From Acidobacteriota bacterium (GTDB lineage Bacteria > Acidobacteriota > Aminicenantia > Aminicenantales > Aminicenantaceae): a stretch of DNA of 46,150 nt. The DNA is taken from the NCBI GenBank assembly GCA_018894615.1, contig JAHIPL010000132.1, positions 1-46,150 on the forward strand, in the 5' to 3' direction. The position numbers were made by a program, and so were the translations under genes. Numbering within the stretch: position 1 is the stretch's first letter; every line of letters begins with the position of its first letter. Positions 2,920 through 23,027 of this stretch are shown here, piece after piece. Below the pieces are notes generated by a model, which saw only the letters and a list, made by a program, of their open reading frames with translations, searched no databases and was not told the origin of the DNA.

Positions 2920-2977
2920 CGTAAATCCTCCGTGAAATGGATATGTTTAAGTTCTTATTATAGGGCCTTCTTATTTT

Positions 2978-4603
2978 TTATCGATAAGGATCAGTGTTGT
3001 ATGGGTCGTTCGTCGCGGTATCTCCCGTTGATTTTAAATCGAGGAGGAACTGATTTTTTTTCGACCGGTCCTCCCCGATGCTGGTGACGTAGATGGCCGG
3101 CTGGTCGACAACCGGACATTTGTTCTCACAGATCCCGCAGCCGTTGCACAGTTGTGTGTCAATCACCGGGGCTTTCGGTTTTTTTATACTTCCATCGGGT
3201 TGAAGGACATCCACCTCCACCATTTTGATGGCTTTGGGTGAGACCGGGCAGTGCTCCTCGCAGACGATACAGGGGTCCCCGAATATCCAGGGGATGCATC
3301 GGTCCTTGTTGATCCAGGCTGTCCCGATCTTGACCTGGGTTTTGGCTTCGACCATCAGCTCTTCGATGGCGCCCGTCGGGCAGACCTGTGTGCAGAGAGA
3401 GCAGTAATACTCACAGTATCCGATCTCGGGAACGAGAATGGGTGTCCAGAGGCCGTCAGGCCCGGCTTCCCATTTTGCGGGCTGCAGCGCATTGGTCGGA
3501 CAGACCTTCATGCATTCCCCGCACTTGACGCATTTTTGAAGAAACATGTCTTCGGGAAGGGCGCCCGGCGGACGGATTAGTTTCTCAGAAGCCCGGGTGC
3601 GTCCGGGATGGATTCGAAAAAAGGGGACGGCCAGAGCACCCAGGAATGTGCCCAGAAGGACTTTTCTTCTGGAGAGATCGATGGCTTCGATGCTTTCCGG
3701 GCGGGCTGAAAAATGAAAATCGATGGCGCTTGTGGGGCAGATCGAACCGCAGGTGAAGCAGTACACGCACTCAGCGCTTTTCCATTCGGCTTCGGGATAA
3801 GGATCGGCCTCGGTTTCGCACTGGATGGTGCAGAGGTTGCAATTAATGCATTTATTCTCATCAATCTTGAGCTTCATGATGTTCCAGCGGGCCAGCAGTC
3901 CCAGAAAAGCGCCCAGCGGACAGAGGTAGCGGCACCAGAAACGCTCTCTGTGCATGTTGAGGAAAACAATTCCGAAAAAAATCAGGCTGATGAGCAGGCC
4001 CTGAAAAAAAACGGCATTCATGTTCAGGGTCTCAAAGGCCTGGACGAATCCGTCTCCCAGGGACGTCCATCCCGTCGAAAAAACGAGCCCGATGGAGATG
4101 GAAAGGACGTGGTTGACGGCAGGAAGAATCCCGGTTGCGAATGAACGGGTAAGCAGGGATAAGGGATCCAGAATTCCGGCCAGATTGAGGGAGAACAGGG
4201 AGGATATCAGCAAAAAGATAAGAATGTAATATTTCCAGGTGGTGTGATTATGGGATCCTTTTCTTGGATGCAGGAGTTTCGCTTTTTTGAAAACAAAAGA
4301 AAAAAACTGCTGAACGGCGCCCATGGGACAAACCCACCCGCATGCCACACGTCCCAGAACCAGGGTGATGACGATCGTGACGGCGGCGAATTTGAAGGCT
4401 GTGAACATGGTCCTGGCCGCAAGAAACGTAACAATCGCAATCAGTGGATCCCAGTGAAAAAATCCCTCCACGTTTTTAATGTAGTCTTCTCCTGGAAATC
4501 GGGTTTGAAGAAGAAGAATCAAAAAGAGGGAGAAAAAGAAAATCTGGGACAGAATGCGCAGAGCTTGAATCAGGCGGTACTTTTTAGACCGTTCTTTTTT
4601 CAA
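2978..4603 (-). CDS. Membrane polyferredoxin, NapH/MauN-like transmembrane domain fused to a NapG/MauM-like 4Fe-4S domain
   Basis: GRVACGWVCPMG and RFWCRYLCPLG (CxxxCP) motifs, several TM segments, multiple CxxCxxCxxxCP clusters, IRPPGA of NapG/MauM; TTG start. Confidence 0.85.
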   Translation of the reverse strand: MKKERSKKYRLIQALRILSQIFFFSLFLILLLQTRFPGEDYIKNVEGFFHWDPLIAIVTFLAARTMFTAFKFAAVTIVITLVLGRVACGWVCPMGAVQQFFSFVFKKAKLLHPRKGSHNHTTWKYYILIFLLISSLFSLNLAGILDPLSLLTRSFATGILPAVNHVLSISIGLVFSTGWTSLGDGFVQAFETLNMNAVFFQGLLISLIFFGIVFLNMHRERFWCRYLCPLGAFLGLLARWNIMKLKIDENKCINCNLCTIQCETEADPYPEAEWKSAECVYCFTCGSICPTSAIDFHFSARPESIEAIDLSRRKVLLGTFLGALAVPFFRIHPGRTRASEKLIRPPGALPEDMFLQKCVKCGECMKVCPTNALQPAKWEAGPDGLWTPILVPEIGYCEYYCSLCTQVCPTGAIEELMVEAKTQVKIGTAWINKDRCIPWIFGDPCIVCEEHCPVSPKAIKMVEVDVLQPDGSIKKPKAPVIDTQLCNGCGICENKCPVVDQPAIYVTSIGEDRSKKNQFLLDLKSTGDTATNDPYNTDPYR

Positions 4604-5468
4604 TTTTCAGCTTCTCCAGGTTGAATTCTCCGAATCCCCTTTCATTGGCCATTCGGAGATAGGGCATGTCTTCAGGTTTGATGTCAAAAAAGCTCAAACC
4701 CAGTGCATCCACAGCCACGTAGTCCGTTCCCGCGATGACGGTTTTTTTCACTTCCATGTCTGAGGGGCGTCCGCCCTGAGGCCCGTTGCGGAGAAGGACC
4801 CTGTAGGCATCGAGCACGGTCAGGACGGGTTTGAAATAGGCGGCGAGATCGATCATGGCCGCATCGAGATTCTGGTGCAGCTGGTTTCTGTTCCCACCGA
4901 GGCAGCCCAGCCAGTTTTTCATTCCCAGAGTGACGCGGGACAGGCTGTGGTGTTTGGCGATGGGAACGTTGATGATTTTATCCGTTTCGATGAAGTCGGT
5001 GTAGACCTCCCAGTCCTTCAGCCATTCTCCGTTCAGGTCAACTTTTTTCATCTTGTGTTCGCTGCAGTAAAGGACCTTTGCCCCCGCATCCTTGGCGGCC
5101 TGGGCGATGCCTGAACGGAGATAGGTCCGTTGGGCGGGATTGCAGGGATTGTCCATCACCTTGACTTCTTTGGCTCCGGCGTCGCGGCACATTTCCACCA
5201 GCGCTCTGACAACCTCCGGATTGGTGCAGGCCGCCTGTTCCGGCCGGCGGTCCCATCCGATATTCGGTTTGATCATCACTCGATCGCCCTTTGTGATGAA
5301 GCGGCCCATTCCGCCGATGGCTTCCACAGCGGTTTTTGTGATCTGAGCAGGGGATTCCCCCTGGATAGAGGCCAGATCCGGAAGGACGGACTGAGCCCAC
5401 AGTCGAGGGCCGGCCTGCAGGATCAGGCTGCCGACCGTGACATCTTTGATAAATGTTCTTCTTTTCAT
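4584..5468 (-). CDS. DUF362 family protein with twin-arginine signal peptide
   Basis: MKRRTFIK Tat motif at ATG 5468; VMIKPNIGWDR, TNPEVV, INVPIAKHH, TLGMKNWLG, DYVAVDA motifs. Confidence 0.85.
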   Translation of the reverse strand: MKRRTFIKDVTVGSLILQAGPRLWAQSVLPDLASIQGESPAQITKTAVEAIGGMGRFITKGDRVMIKPNIGWDRRPEQAACTNPEVVRALVEMCRDAGAKEVKVMDNPCNPAQRTYLRSGIAQAAKDAGAKVLYCSEHKMKKVDLNGEWLKDWEVYTDFIETDKIINVPIAKHHSLSRVTLGMKNWLGCLGGNRNQLHQNLDAAMIDLAAYFKPVLTVLDAYRVLLRNGPQGGRPSDMEVKKTVIAGTDYVAVDALGLSFFDIKPEDMPYLRMANERGFGEFNLEKLKIEKRTV

Positions 5469-5472
5469 AATC

Positions 5473-6681
5473 CTATCCTTTTCCGAGAGATTGAATGTAG
5501 CGGACAATGCCGTTGAAGATCCCCTGAGCGACATGCTGTCGGTACTCGGGCGACTTGAGGCGTTCCTCCTCCCGGCTGTGGCTGAGATGGGAGATTTCGA
5601 TCAGAACGGACGGCATTTCTCCTCCGATGAGCACCCAGAACGGGCCGCCTCTGACCCCCAGGTCTTGGATGTACTTGTACGATCCGGAGAGGTGCTGGAC
5701 AAGTTGGGACTGGATGCACTGGGCAAGCTCCCTGGATTCCAGTATTTTGCTGTTTTTGACGATTTTATTGATGATGTTTTTCATATCACTGATATTTTTG
5801 GTGGAGGTCGCGTTCTCGCGTGCGGCGATCGCTGTAACATCGGGATCCGCGGAAAAATTAAGAAAAAAAGTGGAGGTCCCGTAAAAATTTTTCCGTGGAT
5901 TGGCATTGGCGTGCACGGAGATAAAAAGATCGGCCTGTTTCTGGTTGGCGATAACGGTTCTGTTCTCGGGCGGAATGAAGATGTCCGACTCGCGGGTGAA
6001 GACGACCTCCAAACCCTTCTGCTGTTGAAGGAGCTGTTTCAAGCGGACGCAGACATCCAGTACGATGTCCTTTTCATAAACGCCGGTCTTTCCCACGCAT
6101 CCCGGGTCGTTGCCTCCATGGCCGGGATCGATGACGATCCGGTGAATCCCGAGTCCAAGCTGTCGGGCCAGGCTGTAGCCCGATTCAAGGGGTTGGGCCG
6201 GTTGGACCAGGGTCGCCGGCGGTTTTCCCGCCGGGGTGGCCGGGATGTTTTTTTTAGGGAAAATATCGATGACGATCCGAAAGGGATCAAAAAGGTGCCA
6301 GACTTGATAGCGGTCGGTCAAGTCAAAATCCAGATCCACCACCATGCGGACGGTCGATTTGTTTTTCTGCGCGATACGGATGCTGCGGATGTAGCCGTTA
6401 TCCACAAGAATGGTCTTGCCGTGAAGAATGGGATTCAGCTGCGTTTCATAGATGTCGATATAAACGCGATCCGGTTCAATGAGCCGGTTGGAATGGTATT
6501 CCCTGAGCTGCCCGATATCAATGGCGATCCGGGTGTGAGTCGGGTGGGTGAAGGGCCGGAGGTTGTACACTTCCACCTGGGCCGCACCCGAGCCGGGGCT
6601 GAAGAGGAGGAGCAAAACAGCTGGCGGAAAAAACAGGGAAAAAATCCGGCGGCGTTTCATCCGCTGTTTAATGTCTGTCAT
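5473..6681 (-). CDS. amiC: N-acetylmuramoyl-L-alanine amidase (AMIN domain + Amidase_3)
   Basis: Signal peptide, AMIN-like RIAIDI/VRMVVDL/FRIVIDI strands, IDPGHGG, FISVHANA, SVLIEISHLS. Confidence 0.9.
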   Translation of the reverse strand: MTDIKQRMKRRRIFSLFFPPAVLLLLFSPGSGAAQVEVYNLRPFTHPTHTRIAIDIGQLREYHSNRLIEPDRVYIDIYETQLNPILHGKTILVDNGYIRSIRIAQKNKSTVRMVVDLDFDLTDRYQVWHLFDPFRIVIDIFPKKNIPATPAGKPPATLVQPAQPLESGYSLARQLGLGIHRIVIDPGHGGNDPGCVGKTGVYEKDIVLDVCVRLKQLLQQQKGLEVVFTRESDIFIPPENRTVIANQKQADLFISVHANANPRKNFYGTSTFFLNFSADPDVTAIAARENATSTKNISDMKNIINKIVKNSKILESRELAQCIQSQLVQHLSGSYKYIQDLGVRGGPFWVLIGGEMPSVLIEISHLSHSREEERLKSPEYRQHVAQGIFNGIVRYIQSLGKG

Positions 6682-6733
6682 CTTTTGTTTTACTGTCCAA
6701 ACGATTGGGTCGCCTTCCTATAATACAAGACGC

Positions 6734-7936
6734 TCAGGCGCCGTATTTTTGCAGTTTCCCGGCATGGGCCAGTAGCAGCGCCATAACATGCACGGCGGGA
6801 AAGCGGCCCAGATATCCATGGCTGCAGGCCCTCTCGGAAAAAAAGGTCACGGTGTCCGGCATGGCGGTCCTCCCGTGAATAATGACGGGATTCGGGTGCC
6901 AGGAGTGAGCCTTCATCAAACAGGGGGTGGAGTGGTCGGAGGTCACCGCCAGCACTTCAGGATTGTGGTGCAGGATGCGCGGAATAAAACCGTCCGTTTT
7001 TTCGATGGCCTTTGTTTTAGCCTCCATATCGCCGTCTTCTCCGGCCGAGTCCGTCCTTTTGACATGCATATAAAAAAAGTCATAATCCGCGTAATGGCGG
7101 TCCAGCGTGTCAAAAAGATCGGAGATGTCCGGCCCGACATCCAGAATGTCCATTCCCGCAAGCTTCGCCAGCCCCCGGTACATGGGATAGTTGGCAATGG
7201 CCGCGGCCTTGAGCTTGTAGAGCTCTTTAAAGGTGGGGATTGTCGGATGTTTGGAAAAGCCGCGAAGAAGGATGGTGTTGGCCCGGGGCTGATCCTTGAG
7301 AACGGCCGTGACTTCCTCGATGAACGCATTCACGACGGCGGCCGCGGTCGCGGCTTCTTCCGTCTGCGCTCCGGTTCCGACAGGAGGCTTGTTTTCCTTC
7401 TGGGGGTCGGCGTCGCTCAAACGGTCGCATAGACCTTCCCCACTGAATTTGGCGACAAAACGGTGCTCCTTGCCGGGTGTGAGCTCAACCGCGATTCCTC
7501 TTACGGATTGAAGGGAGGAATTGACCAGACGGCACAGTTCCATGTTCCGCTCGCTGGAGATGCGTCCGGCCCGGCGGTCCGTTATCTTCCCCTCGGACAG
7601 AGTGGCGAAGTTGCCTCTGGCGACCATGTCGTTCGGCCCGACAAGAACACCGACTCCCAGGGCCTCAAGAATTCCGCGTCCCAGGATGTACTTGAACGGA
7701 TCGTATCCGAACAAAGACAGATGGGAAGGTCCGCTGCCCGGGGTGATGCCCCTGGCGACCGGATCCGTCAGGCCGCATGCGCCCTCCAGGGCCAGCCGGT
7801 CGAGATGGGGAGTAACAGCTCTTTCGAGCGCCGTCTGTCCGTCCGTCGGGAGGTCGCCGAGCCCGTCCATGACCAGAAGGACGATTTTGGATTCCGTTGG
7901 AACACATAAGGAGCGCAGAACGTCAATTTCTTTCAT
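6734..7936 (-). CDS. apgM: 2,3-bisphosphoglycerate-independent phosphoglycerate mutase, archaeal-type
   Basis: VMDGLGD, TPGSGPSHLSLFGY, DRRAGRI, HVKRTDSAGEDG, TSDHSTP, HSWHPNP. Confidence 0.92.
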   Translation of the reverse strand: MKEIDVLRSLCVPTESKIVLLVMDGLGDLPTDGQTALERAVTPHLDRLALEGACGLTDPVARGITPGSGPSHLSLFGYDPFKYILGRGILEALGVGVLVGPNDMVARGNFATLSEGKITDRRAGRISSERNMELCRLVNSSLQSVRGIAVELTPGKEHRFVAKFSGEGLCDRLSDADPQKENKPPVGTGAQTEEAATAAAVVNAFIEEVTAVLKDQPRANTILLRGFSKHPTIPTFKELYKLKAAAIANYPMYRGLAKLAGMDILDVGPDISDLFDTLDRHYADYDFFYMHVKRTDSAGEDGDMEAKTKAIEKTDGFIPRILHHNPEVLAVTSDHSTPCLMKAHSWHPNPVIIHGRTAMPDTVTFFSERACSHGYLGRFPAVHVMALLLAHAGKLQKYGA

Positions 7937-7984
7937 AATGCCTGCTTAAACATTATTGATTCAAATCGCATTTTTTCGACACAA

Positions 7985-8013
7985 ACTATAGGGGATAATT
8001 TCCGGCAAGTCAA
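7985..8013 (-). promoter_or_regulatory. Sigma70-type promoter for the apgM operon
   Basis: Minus strand TTGACT-17 bp-TATAGT, about 50 bp upstream of the apgM ATG. Confidence 0.65.
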
Positions 8014-8016
8014 CGA

Positions 8017-8080
8017 AGCGGGCCTGTTTCCAGGGGACATGCCGGTGGACATCACCGCCTGGAACACCCGGGAGGCCGCT
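8017..8080. repeat. Nested inverted repeat (long hairpin) between the divergent apgM and guaA promoters
   Basis: AGCG(G)GCCT/AGGCCGCT, TTCCAGG/CCTGGAA and CGGTG/CACCG stems nested around a GACAT loop. Confidence 0.55.
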
Positions 8081-8117
8081 CGTCCCGAATTCGCTGGTAG
8101 AACCACCGGGCAATTTC

Positions 8118-8126
8118 TGCTAAAAT
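8118..8126 (+). promoter_or_regulatory. Extended -10 promoter of guaA (possibly leaderless transcript)
   Basis: TGcTAAAAT ends 7 nt before the ATG at 8133; no Shine-Dalgarno before the ATG. Confidence 0.45.
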
Positions 8127-8132
8127 CTATGC

Positions 8133-9665
8133 ATGAAGAAGGTTTTTGTTCTCGATTTCGGGTCACAGTACACTCAACTCATTGCGAGGAAGATTAGAGA
8201 ACTGGGTGTTTTTTCTGAAATTCTGCCGTTTGATACGTCCGTGGAGCATTTCAGAAAGGAGCGTCCCGGGGCGATCATTCTATCCGGCGGTCCGCAAAGC
8301 GTCTACGAGAAGGATTCCCCTTCCATTACGGCAGAGATTTTTAACCTCGGCGTTCCCGTTCTCGGGATCTGCTACGGCCTTCAGATCATGAGCCTGAGCC
8401 TCGGAGGCGAAGTGGTGGCCTCGACCAAACGGGAGTATGGTTTTGCCGCTCTCCGGGTGCTGGACCGGAAAGGGATTCTGTCCGGGATTCGGGACGGCGG
8501 GCAGGTCTGGATGAGCCACGGCGACAAGGTCAGCCGGATCCCCCCGGGGTTCCGCGTTACGGGAACGACAAAGAACTGTAAAACGGCCGTCATCGAGTCC
8601 CCGGGAAATAATCTGTACGGGATCCAGTTCCATCCCGAAGTCATTCACACCAGGCAGGGGAAAAAGATCCTGGCCAACTTCCTCTTCAATCTGGCCGGAA
8701 TCGAGCCGAACTGGGACATGGAATCCTTCATCGACACAAAAACAAAGGAAATCCGGCGGCAGGTCGGAGACAGGCTGATCGTCTGCGGCCTGAGCGGCGG
8801 CGTGGATTCTCTCGTGACTTCGCTTCTCCTTCATCGGGCTGTCAAAGACAACCTTTACTGCATCTTCGTCGACAACGGACTGTTGCGAAAAGGCGAGTAT
8901 CAGAGACTCATGGAGACATTCAGAAAAAAGTTCGATCTGAACGTGATCGGCGTCGAAGCGGAAGACCGATTTCTTCACCGGCTGAAAAAGATATCCTCTC
9001 CGGAAAGGAAGAGAAAAATCATCGGGGAAGAGTTCATCCACATTTTTGAGGAGGAAGCGGGAAAAATCGGACAGATCGATTTCCTGGCCCAGGGGACGAT
9101 TTATCCCGATGTGATTGAAAGCAATCCCGTCAAGGGGCCCTCATCAAAAATCAAATCCCATCACAATGTGGGCGGACTGCCCAAGGATCTCCCCTTTGAA
9201 CTGATCGAACCGCTCAAGGAACTGTTCAAGGATGAAGTGAGGGAACTGGCGGCTGATCTGGGGCTGGAGAAGGATTTTATTTCTCAGCACCCCTTTCCCG
9301 GGCCGGGGCTCGCCGTGCGGGTGATCGGCGAGGTCACGCGGGAAAGGCTGCGTATTCTGCGCGAAGCGGACGATATCCTGATTCAGGAAATTCGCAAAGC
9401 GAGGCTGTACGATAAACTATGGCAGGCTTTTGCCGTTCTCCTGCCGGTCCGATCCGTCGGAGTGATGGGAGACCGCCGGACATACCAGAGGGTTTGTGTC
9501 CTTCGTCTTGTCCAGAGTGTCGACGGCATGACGGCGGATTGGTTTCCCGCGGATTCCAGGCTTCTCTCCACAATTGCGAACAGGATCGTCAATGAAGTGG
9601 ACGGAATCAACCGGATCGTTTACGATATAACGACCAAACCGCCCGGAACGATTGAGTGGGAGTAG
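8133..9665 (+). CDS. guaA: GMP synthase (glutamine-hydrolysing)
   Basis: LDFGSQYTQLIAR, GICYG, QFHPE, LSGGVDS, AQGTIYPDVIES, KPPGTIEWE. Confidence 0.99.
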   Translation: MKKVFVLDFGSQYTQLIARKIRELGVFSEILPFDTSVEHFRKERPGAIILSGGPQSVYEKDSPSITAEIFNLGVPVLGICYGLQIMSLSLGGEVVASTKREYGFAALRVLDRKGILSGIRDGGQVWMSHGDKVSRIPPGFRVTGTTKNCKTAVIESPGNNLYGIQFHPEVIHTRQGKKILANFLFNLAGIEPNWDMESFIDTKTKEIRRQVGDRLIVCGLSGGVDSLVTSLLLHRAVKDNLYCIFVDNGLLRKGEYQRLMETFRKKFDLNVIGVEAEDRFLHRLKKISSPERKRKIIGEEFIHIFEEEAGKIGQIDFLAQGTIYPDVIESNPVKGPSSKIKSHHNVGGLPKDLPFELIEPLKELFKDEVRELAADLGLEKDFISQHPFPGPGLAVRVIGEVTRERLRILREADDILIQEIRKARLYDKLWQAFAVLLPVRSVGVMGDRRTYQRVCVLRLVQSVDGMTADWFPADSRLLSTIANRIVNEVDGINRIVYDITTKPPGTIEWE

Positions 9666-15161: not shown

Positions 15162-16262
15162 ATGATGACCTGTACATTCGATGCGGTGCTTGATCAGCAG
15201 GAAAAAGAGCGGAATTTTCGATGTGTTGTTCGTTTTGCGGAAAAAGATTATGCCGCTGAGATGAGCCGGTTTCCGCAAAAAAGGGAGGAAGGGGAACAAC
15301 CGGCCTTTTATTTTGTCCGTTCCAGCCAGCCCATTCCTCTGGTGTGGAAACATCCATTCATTTATACCAAGGAAAAGGAAAGCGGTGCCGCAGGAAAGGC
15401 AACGGTCCTTTTTCCCGGGGCGAACAGGGTGACAGGGAAAAAAGAAATGGCTCGAAGGGGCATGCTGTTTCTTCTGTCTGAAGGGGTGGAGGAGATGGTG
15501 CGCGCCGTTGTGGATGAAGCGGGGATTCAAGGGATCATCCAAGAGCGGCTCGTTGATTTTTCAGGGCTCTCCGTTCAGGATCTGACGGAGCGGAGCGTCC
15601 TGCTGGAATCCAAAGGACATCTTCGCATCCTCTCCTTTTCCCCGCTCTTTTTTCTTTCACAGACCAGTTTTGAGAATCTCTGCTCAAAGATCGTTCAGCA
15701 TCTGACCCGCTTCCACGAGGGGCATCCGACCCTGATGGGACTGAATAAAAAAAAGATCCGGCAGCGGTTTGACGTGCATCCGCGTATTTTGACCCTGGCC
15801 CTCAAGAATCTGGTCCGGGCTCAGATGATAAGGGAAGGGGATGAATATATCGCCCTTGCAGATTTCCAGATTCATCTCTCTTCATCGGATGAAAAAGTTC
15901 TGGCCCACCTCGAAGACATCTACCTTGAGGGGCATTTTCAGTCGGAGTCTCTTGAAAGTCTGCGACGCAAGCTCAACGTGGCACCCCATAAGTTGGATCA
16001 GTTGATTTCCCTTCTTATCGAAAGGGAGAGGGTGGTGCAGTCCAAAGACGGGTATATTCTTCATGCCGACTGGCTGGATGACCTGGTCGCCAAACTGAAA
16101 TCCCTGGAGAAGAGGGAGCTGACGGTTTCCGAATTTAAAGACATGACAGGCCTGACGAGGAAGTATGCCATTCCTCTTCTTGAACTGCTCGATCAGATGA
16201 ACATCACCCGCCGCAGAGGATCGGTGCGGGAAATCGTATCGGAGGGAGAACGAGGGAAATGA
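15162..16262 (+). CDS. SelB C-terminal (winged-helix, SECIS-binding) domain protein lacking the GTPase domain
   Basis: C-terminus LTVSEFKDMTGLTRKYAIPLLELLDQMNITRRRGSVR matches SelB WH4; FHEGHPTLMGL matches WH2; no P-loop in 366 aa; own RBS AGGAGA. Confidence 0.8.
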   Translation: MMTCTFDAVLDQQEKERNFRCVVRFAEKDYAAEMSRFPQKREEGEQPAFYFVRSSQPIPLVWKHPFIYTKEKESGAAGKATVLFPGANRVTGKKEMARRGMLFLLSEGVEEMVRAVVDEAGIQGIIQERLVDFSGLSVQDLTERSVLLESKGHLRILSFSPLFFLSQTSFENLCSKIVQHLTRFHEGHPTLMGLNKKKIRQRFDVHPRILTLALKNLVRAQMIREGDEYIALADFQIHLSSSDEKVLAHLEDIYLEGHFQSESLESLRRKLNVAPHKLDQLISLLIERERVVQSKDGYILHADWLDDLVAKLKSLEKRELTVSEFKDMTGLTRKYAIPLLELLDQMNITRRRGSVREIVSEGERGK

Positions 16263-17284
16263 AGGAATGGATGCCGCCCGGTGATATAAGGGTGATCCGG
16301 ACCGTGGATGCCCATACGGCCGGAGAGCCCCTTCGTATCATTGTCGAGGGAATTCCGGAAATTCCGGGATCGACCATTCTGGAGAAAAGACGTTTTGCAA
16401 AAAAAAATCTGGATTGGATCCGAACGGCATTGATGTGGGAACCGCGAGGACATGCCGACATGTATGGATGTTACCTGACGGAAGCCGAAAAACCTGATGG
16501 AACGCTGGGTGTGATCTTTCTGCACAACGATGGCTACAGCACGATGTGCGGACACGGTATCATCGCGCTGGCGACGGCACTGGTTGAAACCGGCCGGATA
16601 GAACCGGACGGCGGGACCGCTCAGATTAACTTTGACACGCCCGCCGGAAGAGTGACGGCCCGGGTTGAAAGCGTGGAGGGCCGAGCGGAGAGGGTTTCTT
16701 TCGAGAACGTGCCTTCCTTTGTCTACGCGCTGGACCGGTCATTTGATATTCCGGGCGTGGGTCGGATCCTGGTGGATGTTGCCTACGGTGGGGCTTTTTA
16801 TGTCTTCTGCAGGGCTGAGGATTTCGGTTTTCGCCTCGTGGCCGAGGAATTCAATAAACTGATCGCCGCCGGAAAAGCGGTGAAAAAGGCCGTATCTTCC
16901 GCTCTTGACATTCGGCATCCTGAAAATCCCGATCTGGGTTTTCTGTACGGGACGATTTTTATCGGGCCGCCTCACGATTCAGGGAACCATTCACGAAATG
17001 TATGTGTGTTCGCTGAGGGTGAAGTGGATCGCAGCCCGACGGGAACCGGGATCAGCGCGCGAGCGGCCATCCACCACGCCAGGGGTGAACTATCCCTTGG
17101 CTCGTATTTCTCCGTTGAAAGCATTCTGGGGACATGTTTGACTGGCCGGGCGGTCCGAACCGCACAGGTCGGTTCTTTTTCCGCAGTGGTTCCCGAAGTT
17201 TCAGGAACGGCCTATTTGACGGGCCGCCACGAATTCTTTCTTAATCCGGACGATCCTCTCCATCAAGGATTCCTGTTCCGTTGA
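16259..17284 (+). CDS. Proline racemase family, Cys/Thr type (predicted trans-3-hydroxy-L-proline dehydratase)
   Basis: DAHTAGEP, EPRGHADMYG, YSTMCGHG (catalytic Cys), DRSPTGTG (Thr in place of the second Cys); ATGA overlap with the upstream gene. Confidence 0.85.
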   Translation: MKEWMPPGDIRVIRTVDAHTAGEPLRIIVEGIPEIPGSTILEKRRFAKKNLDWIRTALMWEPRGHADMYGCYLTEAEKPDGTLGVIFLHNDGYSTMCGHGIIALATALVETGRIEPDGGTAQINFDTPAGRVTARVESVEGRAERVSFENVPSFVYALDRSFDIPGVGRILVDVAYGGAFYVFCRAEDFGFRLVAEEFNKLIAAGKAVKKAVSSALDIRHPENPDLGFLYGTIFIGPPHDSGNHSRNVCVFAEGEVDRSPTGTGISARAAIHHARGELSLGSYFSVESILGTCLTGRAVRTAQVGSFSAVVPEVSGTAYLTGRHEFFLNPDDPLHQGFLFR

Positions 17285-17373: not shown

Positions 17374-19617
17374 CTATCTTCGTCTTCTTTTTCTGGCCGC
17401 TTTTTGCTTTTCTTTTTCTTTTTTGGTTTCCACAAGAGCCGTTTTCAATTTTGCGGCGAAAAGACCGGAAGTGGGCTCTTCGTCCTTCACAAAGACCGGG
17501 TATTCTTCTTCTTGTTTCTTTTTCTCGCCCTCTTTTAGGGGCTCTTCTTTGAGAGGCTCCTCGATGACCTTGTCATCAAAAGCGGACTTGAGGGCGGAGA
17601 GGGCTTCCATCTCGGATTCTTCCAGTTCAATCTCTTCTTCCCTGATTTTTCGGACGCCTTTTCTATGCCGCCGGGCACCCCGTTCCGTTTCTGTTTTTAA
17701 AGGATGCCCCTTTTTCTTATCTTTGGCTTTCTTCGTTTTTTCATCTTTCGCTTTCTGGAGCGTCAGTTTCGCCTCCTCCGCTTCCGGCAGTTTTTTCTCT
17801 TTGGGTTCCCTTTCAGTCGGAGGGGAGACGGGTTTCGTCCGGGCCGGTTCAACCGGGGACACCGATTCGATCTTCTCTCTCACAGGAGGGACCTCCGGCT
17901 CGATGATACGAAGCTTCGGCATCTCTTCGGCCGCAGCACTTCCCGGTTCGGGGGCGATGGTGCCGATACTGGGCATCCTTTTCTTTCCCTCTTCCCCGGA
18001 GGGTGACGGGGTTTTTGCTCCGGAGGGAGAGGGTGCCGGTTTTTTCTCGATTTCAACGTCCTCTGTCACGATTTTTTCTCTGTAAAAGAAAATGCCTTTT
18101 TTCTTTTCGGATCTTTCAAATTCAGGGGAATTGAGCAGAACGGTTTCCACATCTTCCTGGTAGGTCAGCTTTAACAGGGTGAGAAGATGGTAGGCGCGCA
18201 GATAGTGCAGAAACTGATCGTCGCCTTCAAAACCGAAATTTTTATAGACATAAACCAGGAGGTCCTGCAGATCTGCTTTTTTCCGAAGGTTGTACGCGCG
18301 GAACAGTTCTTCCATGGCGTTTTTTTCCAGGAAGATGATTTTATTCGGCATGCAGTAGGAATGAACGTCCCCCTTCTCCAGGAAGAACTCATCCTTATCC
18401 TTGTTGTATCCGATTTTTGGGATTTCGATTTTTTTCTTTCCTTTTTTTATGGAAAAAGAAAAATCGGCCGGGCCGTTCCGTTTCAAGGACAGGCTTGATC
18501 CCTGCGGGACATTGTGTTTCTGGAAATAGTCCTTCAGCCCGATAAAGGAGTGGATGTTCGAGTAGTAGTAGACGGTGTAGATGTCTCCCGATCCCAAGTC
18601 CGTGAACCGGTATTCCCGAATCGCCGCCAGTTCTCTGTGGAGATGTTTGGGAATGATCACCCCTCCGGAAAAAAGTTCCCGCCATGTGAGATAAAGCTTG
18701 AGTGGAAATTTCTGCGAGGTGGAAATTTCCGGCTTGATCCCGTCCGTATAGGCAGGGACCCGAACTCTTTTGGCGGAGAGGGGAAGATCCTGGATGAGGG
18801 CATCCAGAATGCTTTTCAGATGCCAGCGGCCTTCATCCTCGGGAGAAACGAAAACAAACTGTTTTTTCAGGCTTTCGAGCGTGGCGTTGAGGCTCAGGCA
18901 TTGGAGGTGGAAAAGCGGGTCCTTAACCTTCATGGAAAACAAATCACGAACAAGGTCTTTTGTGGGAACGGACTTTTGTGAGGCGTTTATTTTTTTCTGA
19001 ACCTGGTCGATCTGCTTTGGGGAAACGGCGATTCGATTCGTGCTCAGCTGCCAGAAATTATTCCAGCTGAAAAAATCGCCGGAACCCGCCAGTGAATGCG
19101 ACAGATTTTTTCCCAGAGAGCGAAAATCCTTGTCCGTCATGGGAAGCTCATGAAGACGGGGATCCTCCTCCCGTTTGAGGGCATCGGGTTTCTCGTTTCT
19201 GGCGTCCTGATTGGACGGGATCAGAACCTGTGTTTTGCTTTTTTTCATGTAGTCGATGTGCCGGCGGAAGATTCCTCCACCCGTGTAATCGACCTCCAGC
19301 ATTTCACAACCGAAGCTTTCATAAGTGATTTTATTGATCACTTTTAATACAACAGCCCCGGAAAAATGTTCTGTTCCCTTGCTGCTCACAACCAGCGGTT
19401 CATCATAGACCCTGTAAATGAGGTCGTCCACTTCGTATAAACCACTGGGGCTGTAGACCTTGACTTCCTGATTCAGCTGTTTGGAGTTTTTTTGAAAGGC
19501 CAATTTTTGTGACAAATCAACCAGACTGAAGGGTTTTTTCTCCTCAGTCAGGACTTTTTTAATGAAGGCCAGGTCCTTGTCGGAAATATTTAAGATATTG
19601 TTTTCTTTGTTCATCAT
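17374..19617 (-). CDS. Large hypothetical protein, globular N-terminal ~520 aa plus disordered Pro/Glu/Lys-rich tail
   Basis: 747-codon ORF, ATGA overlap with the upstream OTC-like gene, low-complexity tail ending KRRRR. Confidence 0.85.
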   Translation of the reverse strand: MMNKENNILNISDKDLAFIKKVLTEEKKPFSLVDLSQKLAFQKNSKQLNQEVKVYSPSGLYEVDDLIYRVYDEPLVVSSKGTEHFSGAVVLKVINKITYESFGCEMLEVDYTGGGIFRRHIDYMKKSKTQVLIPSNQDARNEKPDALKREEDPRLHELPMTDKDFRSLGKNLSHSLAGSGDFFSWNNFWQLSTNRIAVSPKQIDQVQKKINASQKSVPTKDLVRDLFSMKVKDPLFHLQCLSLNATLESLKKQFVFVSPEDEGRWHLKSILDALIQDLPLSAKRVRVPAYTDGIKPEISTSQKFPLKLYLTWRELFSGGVIIPKHLHRELAAIREYRFTDLGSGDIYTVYYYSNIHSFIGLKDYFQKHNVPQGSSLSLKRNGPADFSFSIKKGKKKIEIPKIGYNKDKDEFFLEKGDVHSYCMPNKIIFLEKNAMEELFRAYNLRKKADLQDLLVYVYKNFGFEGDDQFLHYLRAYHLLTLLKLTYQEDVETVLLNSPEFERSEKKKGIFFYREKIVTEDVEIEKKPAPSPSGAKTPSPSGEEGKKRMPSIGTIAPEPGSAAAEEMPKLRIIEPEVPPVREKIESVSPVEPARTKPVSPPTEREPKEKKLPEAEEAKLTLQKAKDEKTKKAKDKKKGHPLKTETERGARRHRKGVRKIREEEIELEESEMEALSALKSAFDDKVIEEPLKEEPLKEGEKKKQEEEYPVFVKDEEPTSGLFAAKLKTALVETKKEKEKQKAARKRRRR

Positions 19618-20531
19618 CTTTTTGTGTCCAATAATAATAACATAATCGCTTTTTGAACATGAAGTTGATTTTTTACCTGCTCGGCGGCCAGAGAGGAGGG
19701 GCGATGTTTTATTCCTCTCTCAAAAACATCCGGATCAAGAAACGGATCGGTGTATATCCGGAGAACGTCTCTTCCGATTTCGGGAAACCGGGCTCCGCCG
19801 ACGAATGATGCTTGGGCTGTTCGGGTGGATATTTCTTTATGGTCCTCCGTTGCTGTTCCTTTTTCGCCGCTCAGATAGACGACATCGGCTGTATCTGCGG
19901 CTGCGGTCGGATCGTCACTCCATTCGATGAATGAGAGCCAATCGGGAAAGACGCCTTCCAGCCGGACAGAGCTCTTCCTCTCCTCGGGATCGGGGAGAGC
20001 GAAAATCAGTCGTGTGCCGGAATAGAGAGCAGCCAGAATCAGGTCTAAACAGAGATTGGTCCAGCTACCGATGTATCCGATGCGAAGCCCGCTTACAGAG
20101 CCTCGGGCCTCTCTGATGGTGTAGAAATCGGACAGGACACGGCAGGGATGATGATGTTCGGAGGAGGCGTTCAGCACCGGGATGGTCATGTCCTCCGCCA
20201 TCGCCAACATCCGCGAGGTGGAAAATCCGGAGAAGATCCATCCGTTCACCCACTGTCCCAGACTCCCGCTCCAGGCGTACTGTCCGGTTTGGGCCTCATC
20301 CTGGGACGGCGACCAGGGAAGATGAATGAGAGCGCCTCCGAGTTGAGCGACCGCTGCTTCCAGGAGGAGGTATTCGGGCATTGATTCTTTTTTGAACAGA
20401 TAGGCAAGCTGATGATGTTTCAGTTTGCCCCTGTAGTCCCGGGGCTTCCCTTTTACATCTTCCGCAAGATCCAGAACCTGGATGAAATCATAGGGGGACA
20501 GGTCCTGAAGGGAAAAAAGACGTGTCGGCAC
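19614..20531 (-). CDS. Ornithine carbamoyltransferase-fold protein with degenerate active site (probable pseudoenzyme)
   Basis: OTC-like framework (LFSLQDLS, AAVAQLGG, PVLNA..HPC..LSDFYTI, NQLHVQKAIM) but STRT, SMG, HCLP and catalytic Arg residues are absent; GTG start 2 nt after the arcC stop. Confidence 0.8.
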   Translation of the reverse strand: MPTRLFSLQDLSPYDFIQVLDLAEDVKGKPRDYRGKLKHHQLAYLFKKESMPEYLLLEAAVAQLGGALIHLPWSPSQDEAQTGQYAWSGSLGQWVNGWIFSGFSTSRMLAMAEDMTIPVLNASSEHHHPCRVLSDFYTIREARGSVSGLRIGYIGSWTNLCLDLILAALYSGTRLIFALPDPEERKSSVRLEGVFPDWLSFIEWSDDPTAAADTADVVYLSGEKGTATEDHKEISTRTAQASFVGGARFPEIGRDVLRIYTDPFLDPDVFERGIKHRPSSLAAEQVKNQLHVQKAIMLLLLDTKR

Positions 20532-20533
20532 TC

Positions 20534-21490
20534 TCAGTTCCTCGACTCTCCGACAATTTTTGTTCCAGATCGATTGAGAAGGGCCGCCTTGAGATGACTG
20601 GCCGAGGTGATCAGCACTTCGTTCCCGCCGGATTCGATGTACTCGATCGCCGCCTTGACTTTGGGGCCCATAGATCCGGGAGGAAAATGCCCGTCGTCAA
20701 GATGTTTTCGGGCTTCACCGACGGTCATTCGGCTGAGAGGTTTTTCATCCGGAGTTCCGAAGTTGAGGCAGATTTTCGGGACATTCGTCAGAATGATGAA
20801 AAGATCACAACCCACCTCATGGGCGATCAGGCCGGAAGCGAAATCCTTGTCGATCACCGCCTCCACTCCCTGGAAAAGGCCGTTGCCGTTGATGATGACC
20901 GGAATTCCGCCGCCGCCGGCCGCGATCACGATTTTTCCCGAATAGACGAGGGTGTGAATGATTCGTTTGGGGATGACATCGATGGGCCTGGGCGAGGGAA
21001 CCACCTTGCGGTAGCCGCGCCCTGCGTCTTCGACCATGATCCACTTTTTTTCTTTCATCAGCATCAGGGCTCTGTATTTGGAGTAAAAAGGGCCGATGGG
21101 TTTCGTCGGATTTTCAAAGGCGGGATCATCCTTATCGACGACGATCTGAGTCATCAGAGTGGCGACATCCTTGTCGATAGAGTTCTTCCGCAGTTCATTG
21201 AGAAGGGCTTTTTCCAGCATGTACCCCATGCTGCCCTCGGTCATGGCATCACAGATGTCCAGAGAGAAAGGAGGAATTTTATTGATCGTTTCCTCCATCT
21301 GGATAAGAAGGTTGCCGACCTGAGGCCCGTTGCCGTGAACGATGATCAGATCAAATCCCTTTTTGACGATGTGGATCATCAGCTGGGCCGCCTTCTGGGC
21401 GTTTCTCATCTGCTCGTCCTGCAGCCCTCTCTGCTCCTTTGGAAGGATGGCGTTTCCGCCGAAGGCGATCAGCGCGGTTTTCTGTCTCAT
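20534..21490 (-). CDS. arcC: Carbamate kinase
   Basis: AFGGNAI, VHGNGPQVG, GRGYRKVVPSP, AGGGGIPV, AVIDKD, GSMGPKV. Confidence 0.96.
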   Translation of the reverse strand: MRQKTALIAFGGNAILPKEQRGLQDEQMRNAQKAAQLMIHIVKKGFDLIIVHGNGPQVGNLLIQMEETINKIPPFSLDICDAMTEGSMGYMLEKALLNELRKNSIDKDVATLMTQIVVDKDDPAFENPTKPIGPFYSKYRALMLMKEKKWIMVEDAGRGYRKVVPSPRPIDVIPKRIIHTLVYSGKIVIAAGGGGIPVIINGNGLFQGVEAVIDKDFASGLIAHEVGCDLFIILTNVPKICLNFGTPDEKPLSRMTVGEARKHLDDGHFPPGSMGPKVKAAIEYIESGGNEVLITSASHLKAALLNRSGTKIVGESRN

Positions 21491-22794
21491 TTGAAACGCT
21501 GGAGGACCTCGTTGAGATCGGGCTTCCCGATTTCTTCCAGATCGTACGTGACGCGCAGGATTTTTTTGTTTGTCTGAATGAGGCGGCCGAGATCGATGGG
21601 TGTGGCGCCGATGACGAGATCACAATCCGTATTGTTGATGGTCTCGGTGAGTTCATCGATCTGATGCTGTCCATACCCCATGGCCGGAAGGACGCGATCG
21701 AGATGGCTGTACTTGGCGAAGGTGTCTTTGATACTGCCGACGGCGTAGGGCCTCGGATCGATGATTTTACCCGCACCATACTGTTCGGCGGCGATGATGC
21801 CGGCGCCGTAGGGCATTTCACCGTGGGTCAGGGTCGGCCCGTCTTCAATGACCAGGACGGATTTTCCCCGGATTTTTTCTCCGTCCGGAACGGTTATCGG
21901 AGAATTGGCCTTGATGACAACGGCTTCGGGATTGCAGATTTTTATATTGTTTTCAACCACTTCAATGTTTTTCTGTTTTGCGGTGGCCATCTTGTTGATG
22001 ATGATCACTTGAGCCCGCCTGAAGTTGGTTTCACCCGGATGATAGAGCCGTTCATGACCGGGCCGGTGTGGATCGACCACGACGATTTCGATATCCGCCT
22101 TGTAAAAGGGGATGTCGTTGTTTCCACCGTCCCAGAGGATGATGTCGGCTTCCTTTTCCGCTTCGGCAAGGATGTCTCCGTAATCAACTCCGGCGTAGAC
22201 AATGATGCCGTTCTGAATGTGGTGTTCGTATTCCTCCATTTCCTCGATTGTGCATTTATGCTTCATCATGTCGTCATAGGTCGCAAATCTCTGGACCCGC
22301 TGTTTGGCAAGGTCTCCGTAAGGCATGGGGTGGCGAATGACGACGACTTTTTTACCCTGTTCTTTGAGAAGCAGAGCAATTTTTCGTGTGGTCTGGCTTT
22401 TCCCGCAGCCCGTCCTGACCGCGCACACCGAAACCAGAGGACGTTTGCTGGGAATCATGGTATCGTTAGGGCCCAGAAAAACAAAACCGGCTCCGGCCGC
22501 CAGAACGATGGAGGCCTTGTGCATCACATTCTCATGAAAAATGTCACTGTAGGAGAACACAACCTCATCCACGCCCAGCTCTTTGATCAGCCGCGGGAGG
22601 CCTTCCTCCTTGTAGATGGGGATTCCATCGGGATAGAGGGGGCCGGCCAGAACGGAGGGGTATTTCCTTCCGTCGATATCCGGTATCTGAGTGGCGGTAA
22701 AGGCCAGAACCTGAAAATCTTTATTGTTTCGATAAAAGACGTTAAAATTATGAAAGTCTCTTCCGGCTGCGCCCATGATAAGGACTTTTCTCAT
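21487..22794 (-). CDS. arcE: COG2403 P-loop protein (often annotated cyclic 2,3-DPG synthetase-like); probable arginine synthetase
   Basis: GAAGRDFHNFN, TATQIP, AVRTGCGKSQT P-loop, RHPMPYG, WDGGNND, EDGPTLTHG; directly upstream of arcC and an OTC homologue; start ATG 22794 after AAGGAG. Confidence 0.8.
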   Translation of the reverse strand: MRKVLIMGAAGRDFHNFNVFYRNNKDFQVLAFTATQIPDIDGRKYPSVLAGPLYPDGIPIYKEEGLPRLIKELGVDEVVFSYSDIFHENVMHKASIVLAAGAGFVFLGPNDTMIPSKRPLVSVCAVRTGCGKSQTTRKIALLLKEQGKKVVVIRHPMPYGDLAKQRVQRFATYDDMMKHKCTIEEMEEYEHHIQNGIIVYAGVDYGDILAEAEKEADIILWDGGNNDIPFYKADIEIVVVDPHRPGHERLYHPGETNFRRAQVIIINKMATAKQKNIEVVENNIKICNPEAVVIKANSPITVPDGEKIRGKSVLVIEDGPTLTHGEMPYGAGIIAAEQYGAGKIIDPRPYAVGSIKDTFAKYSHLDRVLPAMGYGQHQIDELTETINNTDCDLVIGATPIDLGRLIQTNKKILRVTYDLEEIGKPDLNEVLQRFK

Positions 22795-22837
22795 AAGGGA
22801 AACTCCTTTTAACAAATAAAATATCTGAAAAACGATT

Positions 22838-22866
22838 AGTATAATACAGGGCTTGGAAATATGCAA
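22838..22866 (-). promoter_or_regulatory. Sigma70-type promoter for the arcE operon
   Basis: Minus strand TTGCAT-17 bp-TATACT. Confidence 0.6.
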
Positions 22867-22872
22867 TCATTC

Positions 22873-22893
22873 GTGAAATGGCTGTGAAATGGC
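22873..22893. repeat. Perfect 10-bp direct repeat with 11-bp period; candidate operator
   Basis: GTGAAATGGC at 22873-22882 and 22884-22893, between two divergent promoters. Confidence 0.6.
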
Positions 22894-22905
22894 CGGGAAT
22901 ATTTA

Positions 22906-22934
22906 TTGACAGGTTCGATTTAAATGTCTAGTAT
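22906..22934 (+). promoter_or_regulatory. Sigma70-type promoter for tRNA-Val/thrS
   Basis: TTGACA-17 bp-TAGTAT, 18 nt before the tRNA. Confidence 0.7.
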
Positions 22935-22952
22935 AGATGGGCTTGCAAAAGT

Positions 22953-23027
22953 AGGCGCGTAGCTCAGTGGAAGAGTGCTTCCTTGACGCGGAAGAAGTCG
23001 AGGGTTCGATCCCCTCCGCGCCTACCA
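22953..23027 (+). tRNA. tRNA-Val(GAC)
   Basis: Cloverleaf: acceptor AGGCGCG/CGCGCCT, D stem GCTC/GAGT, anticodon stem CTTCC/GGAAG with loop TTGACGC, T arm GAGGG-TTCGATC-CCCTC, encoded CCA. Confidence 0.97.

What the first reader, a model, noticed from the sequence alone, without database searches (positions are those of the whole stretch)
19614..22794. Arginine synthetase (ArcE)-type energy-conserving operon instead of an arginine deiminase pathway
Seen: a COG2403 P-loop gene, carbamate kinase and an OTC homologue are tightly coupled (4-nt overlap, 2-nt gap), with no arcA in the window. Known, from memory: a Thermococcus kodakarensis member of this family was shown by the Atomi group in 2024 to be arginine synthetase (Arg + ADP + Pi = citrulline + ATP + NH3), acting with OTC and carbamate kinase. 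Inference: this bacterium may gain two ATP per arginine. Because the operon's OTC looks dead, the middle step must come from another gene, or the pathway has been rewired to a different amidine or ureido substrate.
Basis: partly seen in the sequence, partly recalled or inferred. Interest (0 to 1): 0.72.

Follow-up and report, generated by a model that had tools for sequence, protein, structure and literature searches.

The report
Arginine synthetase operon with dead OTC
This uncultured Aminicenantes bacterium carries an operon for the recently discovered two-ATP "arginine synthetase" route of arginine breakdown; its built-in ornithine carbamoyltransferase has lost its catalytic residues but is still conserved, and a second, intact copy elsewhere in the genome most likely does that step.

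Summary
On the minus strand lie a 435-aa P-loop gene (21487-22794), a carbamate kinase (20534-21490; 4-nt overlap) and an OTC-fold gene (19614-20531; 2-nt gap). A 747-aa gene follows (17374-19617; 4-nt overlap).

- **ArcE assignment.** The P-loop protein is 64-65% identical, without gaps, to the single homologue in each of five Thermococcus genomes. It scores only 22 bits against the solved cyclic-2,3-DPG synthetase.
- **Genome content (91% complete).** No arginine deiminase, argG, argH or argC was found. CPS, an ATCase and one intact 333-aa OTC on another contig are present.
- **Class-wide pattern.** arcE-arcC-arcB-p7xx is widespread in the class: 64 of 83 loci carry an OTC gene there. That OTC is intact in 56 loci.
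- **Dead copies.** It has lost its catalytic motifs only in the window, a JGI relative, G136 and one genus of five genomes. In the family sample, those with whole genomes are among the few that gained the second OTC.
- **Selection.** The dead copies keep open frames, a predicted OTC fold and dN/dS of 0.12-0.36. That marks a retained pseudoenzyme rather than a neutral relic.

So this is a known pathway in a new host. The paralogue displacement and retained dead ArcB are the modestly new part. No activity was assayed.

The parts
21487..22794 (-). arcE: arginine synthetase orthologue (435 aa, P-loop with Walker A RTGCGKS)
   Evidence: 64% identity over 433 aa with no gaps to a Thermococcus homologue. 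One homologue in each of 5 Thermococcus genomes at 65%. 22 bits to cDPGS 9sxb. Present in 133 of 134 high-quality genomes of the class. Single copy in this genome.
20534..21490 (-). arcC: carbamate kinase (318 aa), start overlaps the arcE stop by 4 nt
   Evidence: TIGR00746 382 bits, above the 358 cut-off. PF00696 match. Single copy in the genome.
19614..20531 (-). Catalytically dead ArcB: an ornithine carbamoyltransferase-derived pseudoenzyme (305 aa)
   Evidence: All four OTC motifs and R106 are lost. Descends from the intact operonic OTC of family-mates (tree). dN/dS 0.36 against its 73% relative. AF2 pLDDT 78 and TM about 0.78 to solved OTCs, with the SMG-loop region 223-248 disordered.
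17374..19617 (-). Last gene of the operon: 747-aa Aminicenantes-specific protein with a predicted B3-like pseudobarrel, winged helices and a Lys/Glu-rich tail; probably binds DNA
   Evidence: Start overlaps the dead arcB stop by 4 nt. Follows arcC or arcB in 78 of 83 loci. No Pfam or NCBIfam hit. AF2 pLDDT 88. Foldseek hits to B3 DNA-binding domains, BfiI and LlaJI.R1 N-domains and SelB/MukE winged helices, with E only about 2e-3.
22795..22952 (-). 5' region of the operon, holding the AAGGAG ribosome-binding site 8 nt before the arcE ATG; promoter not identified
   Evidence: Sequence read. No minus-strand sigma-70-like site was found here. tRNA-Val and thrS lie divergently on the + strand.

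Best explanation
This is the arginine synthetase (ArcE) pathway operon of an Aminicenantes bacterium. ArcE converts arginine + ADP + Pi to citrulline + ATP + NH3. An OTC phosphorolyses citrulline to ornithine + carbamoyl phosphate. The operon's carbamate kinase then makes a second ATP. The ancestral operon of the class is arcE-arcC-arcB-p7xx. In this lineage a second 333-aa OTC arose or was acquired (contig C26) and took over the middle step. The operonic arcB then lost all its substrate-binding residues. It has nevertheless been kept as an intact, folded protein under purifying selection, that is, as a pseudoenzyme. Its most likely role is non-catalytic: a structural or regulatory partner of the neighbouring enzymes, by analogy with the physical carbamate kinase-OTC complex of Pyrococcus furiosus. 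Shown here: orthology, gene content, motif loss, the co-occurrence with the second OTC, and selection on the dead copy. Inferred: the direction of flux, the ATP yield, that the C26 OTC serves this pathway, and any role of the dead ArcB.
For: ArcE orthology rests (64-65% identity, full length, no gaps, a single Thermococcus homologue per genome), (22 bits to cDPGS) and on PMC11032458, which states that arcE homologues occur throughout Thermococcales and sometimes lie next to arcB/arcC. The carbamate kinase is above its equivalog cut-off. The genome has no ADI, argG, argH or argC, while CPS, an intact OTC and an ATCase are present. That pattern fits catabolism in an arginine auxotroph, as in T. 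kodakarensis (PMC13260591). The operon is widespread in the class, and the OTC is intact in 56 of the 64 loci that have one. In the family sample the C26-type OTC occurs in G000, G136, five genomes of genus g4, G146, G122, G060 and G182. That set covers every dead-OTC genome with a whole genome available. In G146 the operonic OTC is deleted, and in G122 arcE is followed directly by the C26-type OTC. The operons of G060 and G182 were not fetched. The other 24 family genomes have only the operonic-type OTC. Dead copies show dN/dS 0.12-0.27 within g4 and 0.36 in the window's lineage, against 0.03-0.17 for arcE, arcC and p7xx. Their frames stay open at dS above 1.4 between genomes. The OTC fold is predicted to be retained.
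Against: No enzyme was assayed, and no bacterial ArcE has been characterised in the papers I found. TK2200 itself was not retrieved, only Thermococcus orthologues. The genome is a 91%-complete MAG, so absences are not absolute. ArcE is reversible, and without argG/argH it could also make arginine from citrulline. No dedicated arginine/ornithine antiporter reaches its cut-off. The C26 OTC is not linked to arginine genes in this genome. The dead ArcB evolves 2-4 times faster than its neighbours, was deleted outright in G146 and is absent from families f9 and f10, so any residual role is dispensable. The single-origin grouping of dead copies may be long-branch attraction, and the ArcE tree intersperses genomes with intact copies.
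Confidence: 0.78

Rival explanations
1. The operon runs mainly in the anabolic direction. Carbamate kinase or CPS supplies carbamoyl phosphate, the C26 OTC makes citrulline, and ArcE makes arginine from citrulline + ATP + NH3, replacing the missing ArgG/ArgH.
For: argG and argH are absent. argG is present in only 22 of 201 genomes of the class, while ArcE is in 190 of 201. CPS is present. ArcE is reversible and supports arginine synthesis in vivo in T. kodakarensis, and the authors propose a biosynthetic role in some bacteria (PMC11032458).
Against: argC gives no match even at E 0.001, so no acetylated route to ornithine is evident. Tight coupling to a carbamate kinase is the signature of the catabolic pathway. 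The equilibrium favours arginine breakdown (K = 10 at 80 C, PMC11032458). argB, argD and argJ were not searched.
Confidence: 0.12
2. The OTC-like gene is just a pseudogene in slow decay with no remaining function. Its open frame persists by chance, or only to keep translation coupled to the downstream gene.
For: Every catalytic motif is gone. The branches are very long, with a stem of 5.35 changes per site for the window's lineage. The constraint is relaxed relative to the neighbours. The gene is deleted in G146 and absent in families f9 and f10. It overlaps the start of the next gene by 4 nt.
Against: dN/dS is 0.12-0.36, well below 1, in two independent lineages. Nine copies from at least four genera all keep full-length frames despite saturated synonymous divergence. 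Core fold elements stay conserved and the fold is predicted with pTM 0.82. Selection for coupling alone would not constrain amino-acid changes.
Confidence: 0.2
3. The P-loop protein is a cyclic 2,3-diphosphoglycerate synthetase (as some NCBI records name its relatives) or a generic GTPase, unrelated to arginine.
For: Source names such as 'cyclic 2,3-diphosphoglycerate synthase' and 'predicted GTPase' appear on close homologues. There is distant similarity to 9sxb.
Against: It scores only 22 bits (E 5e-4) over partial stretches to the solved cDPGS, against 633-640 bits and 65% identity to the Thermococcus arcE orthologues. The operon with arcC and arcB is conserved across most of the class.
Confidence: 0.01
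4. The pathway has been rewired to a different amidine or ureido substrate (for example agmatine), with the OTC-like protein acting on a new carbamoyl acceptor.
For: The operon's OTC is unlike any active OTC. Transcarbamylases with altered second-substrate motifs are known (PMC6022934).
Against: Transcarbamylases of every substrate described in PMC6022934 keep the SxRTR and HPxQ carbamoyl-phosphate motifs. Here SxRTR is lost in all dead copies, and HPxQ is altered in the window's protein. ArcE is 70-79% identical to orthologues paired with intact OTCs. The C26 enzyme scores as OTC (580 bits) and not as putrescine carbamoyltransferase (294 bits against a cut-off of 500).
Confidence: 0.03

Closest known systems
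Arginine synthetase pathway of Thermococcus kodakarensis (ArcE/TK2200 + ArcB + ArcC; Michimori, Yokooji & Atomi 2024, PMC11032458; Michimori et al. 2026, PMC13260591)
   Same: ArcE orthologue at 64-65% identity. Carbamate kinase and OTC are present. arcA, argG and argH are absent, so the organism is a likely arginine auxotroph. arcE is clustered with arcC/arcB, as the paper notes for some genomes.
   Different: The host is a bacterium (Aminicenantes) with a canonical CPS. The operonic ArcB is catalytically dead, and the active OTC is an unlinked paralogue. A fourth, probably DNA-binding, gene is part of the operon.
Arginine deiminase (ADI) pathway, arcABC(D)
   Same: Same last two steps (OTC, carbamate kinase) and the same overall conversion of arginine to ornithine, CO2 and 2 NH3.
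   Different: The first step is hydrolytic ArcA and yields one ATP. No ArcA is present here. In the class, full-length ADI (about 430-aa frames, 188-232 bits) is found only in about 21 genomes of families f9 and f10. No ArcD antiporter reaches its cut-off.
Cyclic 2,3-diphosphoglycerate synthetase (PDB 9sxb)
   Same: Distantly related P-loop fold. The name is mis-transferred to relatives of this protein in some records.
   Different: Only 22 bits of similarity over partial stretches.
Carbamate kinase-OTC channelling complex of Pyrococcus furiosus (Massant & Glansdorff 2005, as cited in PMC6022934)
   Same: It shows that OTC and carbamate kinase can bind each other physically. That gives a plausible non-catalytic reason to keep an OTC-fold protein next to arcC.
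   Different: Both partners are active there. No interaction was tested here.
Inactive dihydroorotase PyrC' that scaffolds Pseudomonas aspartate transcarbamoylase (recalled from memory, not checked)
   Same: A dead enzyme paralogue of carbamoyl-phosphate metabolism retained for a structural role.
   Different: A different fold and a different partner. It serves only as an analogy.

Membership tests
ArcE arginine synthetase (TK2200 family) | Full-length orthology to T. kodakarensis TK2200 | tested here: met
   64-65% identity over 433 aa with no gaps to the single homologue in each of five Thermococcus genomes. TK2200 itself was not retrieved. Orthology is inferred because PMC11032458 reports arcE throughout Thermococcales and each genome has one homologue.
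ArcE arginine synthetase (TK2200 family) | P-loop nucleotide-binding site | tested here: met
   Walker A 'RTGCGKS' is conserved with Thermococcus. Weak P-loop Pfam hits.
ArcE arginine synthetase (TK2200 family) | Catalyses Arg + ADP + Pi = Cit + ATP + NH3 | not testable with these tools
   Needs an enzyme assay.
ArcE arginine synthetase (TK2200 family) | Complements the absence of arcA in genomes that have arcC | tested here: met
   No PF02274 match in the genome, and arcC is adjacent.
Carbamate kinase (ArcC, TIGR00746) | Score above the equivalog cut-off over the full length | tested here: met
   382.4 bits against 358.25, model positions 2-308 of 309.
Ornithine carbamoyltransferase (active enzyme) | SxRTR and HPxQ carbamoyl-phosphate motifs | tested here: not met
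   ESMPE and HPCR in the window protein. Motif definitions from PMC6022934.
Ornithine carbamoyltransferase (active enzyme) | DxxxSMG and HCLP ornithine motifs | tested here: not met
   LSGEKG and YTDP. The region is predicted to be disordered.
Ornithine carbamoyltransferase (active enzyme) | Score above a curated OTC model cut-off | tested here: not met
   Best is 120.5 bits against a cut-off of 306.
Ornithine carbamoyltransferase (fold and descent) | Two-domain transcarbamylase fold and descent from an OTC | tested here: met
   Both Pfam domains are above cut-off. TM 0.75-0.80 to solved OTCs. Nested among intact operonic OTCs in the tree.
Cyclic 2,3-diphosphoglycerate synthetase | Close sequence similarity to a characterised cDPGS | tested here: not met
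   22.4 bits, E 5e-4, partial stretches only, to 9sxb.

The most novel reading that the evidence does not exclude
The dead ArcB is the first transcarbamylase-fold pseudoenzyme. It would be retained as a non-catalytic subunit that binds carbamate kinase and/or ArcE, acting as a scaffold, a channelling adaptor towards the unlinked OTC, or a sensor of citrulline or ornithine. ArcE would also be the only arginine-citrulline link across nearly the whole class Aminicenantia.
Probability: 0.3. Interest if true: 0.6.

Novelty: new member of a known kind. Interest (0 to 1): 0.42.

Why it matters
Arginine synthetase was described only in 2024, and only in an archaeon. Here a whole bacterial class of uncultured, amino-acid-dependent sediment and subsurface organisms carries arcE in 133 of 134 good genomes. 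It usually lies in an arcE-arcC-arcB operon. Only 22 of 201 genomes have argG, and true ADI is rare. This gives comparative support that the two-ATP arginine route is a major energy pathway in environmental bacteria. The window also records a clean case of paralogue displacement: a second OTC appears, and the operonic OTC loses catalysis yet stays under selection. That makes it a tractable candidate for a new pseudoenzyme role in carbamoyl-phosphate metabolism.

Tried and rejected
- **cDPGS identity:** rejected.
- **Rewired substrate:** rejected on loss of the carbamoyl-phosphate motifs (PMC6022934).
- **Second arcE or arcC copy in the genome:** none found.
- **T. kodakarensis genome via a KOD polymerase query:** the strain itself did not appear, only Thermococcus MAGs at up to 92% identity. 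These were used instead.
- **Supplement of PMC11032458** (gene-cluster and tree figures): not held.
- **Sigma-70 promoter and terminator scan:** nothing above chance for the operon.
- **Literature search for transcarbamylase pseudoenzymes:** nothing relevant.
- **Arginine/ornithine antiporter TIGR03810:** only generic permease-level hits.
- **Genomic context of the active OTC on C26:** membrane glycosyltransferase-like proteins and a radical-SAM-like protein, judged by eye from the translations without a family scan; no arginine genes.
- **Single origin of the dead copies:** could not be settled, because of long branches and an ArcE tree that intersperses genomes with intact copies.
Full report
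**What is there.** The window is contig C52 of a 2.95-Mb, 91%-complete genome. Close protein relatives are labelled Candidatus Aminicenantes. Four tightly packed genes lie on the minus strand:
- a P-loop gene, 21487-22794;
- a carbamate kinase, 20534-21490, with a 4-nt overlap;
- an OTC-fold gene, 19614-20531, after a 2-nt gap;
- a 747-aa gene, 17374-19617, with a 4-nt overlap.

The P-loop ORF extends to a TTG at 22866. tRNA-Val and thrS-infC-pheST run divergently upstream.

**The P-loop protein is an ArcE orthologue.** Pfam and NCBIfam have no model for it. Against solved structures, the only relative is cyclic-2,3-DPG synthetase 9sxb, at 22 bits over partial stretches. I reached five Thermococcus genomes through a DNA-polymerase query. 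Each holds exactly one homologue, 65% identical over the whole length. A pairwise alignment shows 279 of 433 identities and no gaps, including the Walker A RTGCGKS. Michimori et al. showed that T. kodakarensis TK2200 (ArcE) catalyses Arg + ADP + Pi = Cit + ATP + NH3. They report arcE throughout Thermococcales and in many bacteria, sometimes next to arcB/arcC, with cDPGS only as a distant outgroup (PMC11032458). TK2200 itself was not retrieved, so orthology is inferred, but strongly.

**Genome context favours catabolism.** The carbamate kinase passes its equivalog cut-off, 382 against 358 bits. arcE and arcC are single-copy.
- Absent from the genome: ADI, argG, argH (only a 93-bit paralogue) and argC.
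- Present: CPS, an ATCase, and one intact 333-aa OTC on contig C26. That OTC scores 580 bits on NF003286 (cut-off 515) and only 294 on the putrescine carbamoyltransferase model.

This is the same pattern as the arginine-auxotrophic T. kodakarensis (PMC13260591), except that CPS is present. Because ArcE is reversible and argG/argH are missing, an anabolic role from exogenous citrulline or ornithine cannot be excluded. No ArcD-type antiporter reaches its cut-off.

**The operon's OTC is dead, and the reason is visible in relatives.** The window protein has STRTR->ESMPE, RTF->SGF, HPCQ->HPCR, DxxxSMG->LSGEKG and HCLP->YTDP. These are the carbamoyl-phosphate and ornithine motifs of the family (PMC6022934). 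In the protein database it has only one close relative (73%). Everything else is at most 28% identical and is a normal OTC.

ArcE occurs in 190 of 201 sampled genomes of the class, and in 133 of 134 high-quality ones. I fetched 80 of these loci. Together with the window and two metagenome or genome loci this makes 83 loci. Of these, 64 carry an OTC gene between arcC and p7xx, which gives the cassette arcE-arcC-OTC-p7xx. The OTC is missing in families f9 and f10 and in five loci that are rearranged, have a deletion or are cut short by the end of the locus. The ~700-aa gene is present in 78 of the 83 loci.

The operonic OTC carries all motifs (SLRTR, RTF, HPCQ, DVWxSMGQ, HCLP) in 56 loci. It is degenerate only in the window, the JGI locus L091, G136 and five genomes of genus g4.

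A search of all 35 sampled family genomes with the C26 OTC gave this picture:
- The C26-type enzyme (71-100% identity) occurs in G000, G136, the five g4 genomes, G146, G122, G060 and G182.
- This set includes every dead-OTC genome for which a whole genome was available.
- In G146 the operonic OTC is deleted.
- In G122 arcE is followed directly by the C26-type OTC.
- The operons of G060 and G182 were not fetched. G182 also has an OTC of the operonic type elsewhere.
- The other 24 genomes have only the operonic type (38-44% identical to C26).

This is paralogue displacement.

**The dead copy is retained, not decaying freely.** Within g4, dN/dS of the dead gene is 0.12-0.27. The same genome pairs give 0.04-0.13 for arcE, 0.03-0.09 for arcC and 0.07-0.16 for p7xx. 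For the window against its 73% relative, the value is 0.36, compared with 0.17 and 0.14 for the flanking gene fragments. All nine dead copies keep full-length frames, although synonymous sites are near saturation between genera.

In a tree they nest inside the family's operonic OTCs on very long branches. They form one group (SH-aLRT 96), with a long-branch caveat. The ArcE tree puts their genomes in one neighbourhood but intersperses four genomes with intact copies, so one or several origins remain open.

Dead copies keep 43-85 of the 130 columns that are at least 90% conserved in intact enzymes. The kept columns are mainly core helices and strands: the N-terminal helix, IPVINA, PCQAL.DFFT, LAFIG and the C-terminal NRLHxxKAIM. 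AlphaFold gives pLDDT 78 and pTM 0.82, with only the former SMG-loop region (223-248) disordered. The model matches solved OTCs at TM 0.75-0.80.

Loss of the SxRTR carbamoyl-phosphate motif, with HPxQ also altered in the window's protein, argues against any transcarbamylase chemistry. The 'new ureido substrate' idea is therefore not supported. A structural or regulatory role is the best guess. The physical carbamate kinase-OTC complex of P. furiosus (cited in PMC6022934) is a precedent. This role is inference only.

**The fourth gene.** The 747-aa protein has no family match. Its 782 detected homologues are nearly all labelled Aminicenantes or Acidobacteriota where a name is given, and all named ones are 'hypothetical'. 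The N-terminal 530 residues fold confidently (pLDDT 88). Foldseek finds a B3-type DNA-binding pseudobarrel (plant B3 factors, BfiI, LlaJI.R1) and SelB/MukE-like winged helices, but with E-values of only about 2e-3. The tail is Lys/Glu-rich. It is probably a DNA-binding protein. Whether it regulates the operon or is merely syntenic is unknown.

**Class-level picture.** Full-length ADI (about 430-aa frames, 188-232 bits) appears only in about 21 genomes of families f9 and f10. Those are the families whose operon lacks an OTC. Other hits are short amidinotransferase-like proteins. argG is present in only 22 of 201 genomes. ArcE is thus the main, and often the only, arginine-citrulline enzyme of the class.

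**Verdict.** This is a known pathway (2024) in a new bacterial host. The new element is a selectively retained dead ArcB, explained by displacement by a second OTC. Limits of this analysis:
- The genome is a MAG, so absences are provisional.
- TK2200 itself was not in hand.

Noticed in passing
window 16259-17284 (+): A proline racemase family gene (PF05544, 380 bits) converges on the end of the arc operon. Ornithine from this pathway is the proline precursor in T. kodakarensis (PMC11032458), so a link to ornithine or proline fermentation is conceivable.
   Followed up: no
window 15162-16262 (+): A 366-aa protein whose only Pfam hit is the SelB winged-helix domain 3 (PF09107), with no GTPase half.
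   Followed up: no
window 22953-23027 (+): tRNA-Val (GAC) lies between the arc operon and thrS, at the head of the thrS-infC-pheST cluster. This arrangement is also seen in L091.
   Followed up: partly
L093 (CP070757.1) 7305-9158: In this complete Aminicenantes genome, arcE is followed by one open frame whose first ~90 residues are carbamate kinase (80% identical) and whose remainder is an HD-domain protein. The gene caller split it into 92 aa + 468 aa. The kinase appears truncated or replaced, and no OTC or p7xx follows.
   Followed up: no
L122 (G122:C53) 2519-8279: arcE is followed by the C26-type OTC (81% identical). Next, on the other strand, come a second carbamoyltransferase (35% to the ATCase) and a second carbamate kinase (44%). 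This may be another carbamoyl-phosphate-yielding catabolic cluster.
   Followed up: no
loci L155-L157 and L165-L179 (families f9 and f10): Here the operon is arcE-arcC-p7xx without an OTC. These same two families are the only ones with full-length arginine deiminase genes, so ArcE and ADI coexist there.
   Followed up: partly
L005 and L017 (QXXF01000046.1, QXXE01000237.1): Short contigs in two 'Clostridiales/Clostridiaceae bacterium' assemblies encode a protein 99-100% identical to my recalled T. kodakarensis KOD DNA polymerase N-terminus. This is most likely reagent or plasmid contamination of those assemblies.
   Followed up: no
G000:C26:16076-21167: Two large paralogous multi-pass membrane proteins (905 and 797 aa, glycosyltransferase-like by eye) lie just upstream of the active OTC. 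A radical-SAM-like CxxxCxxC protein lies downstream. None was scanned against a family library, and none is arginine-related.
   Followed up: no
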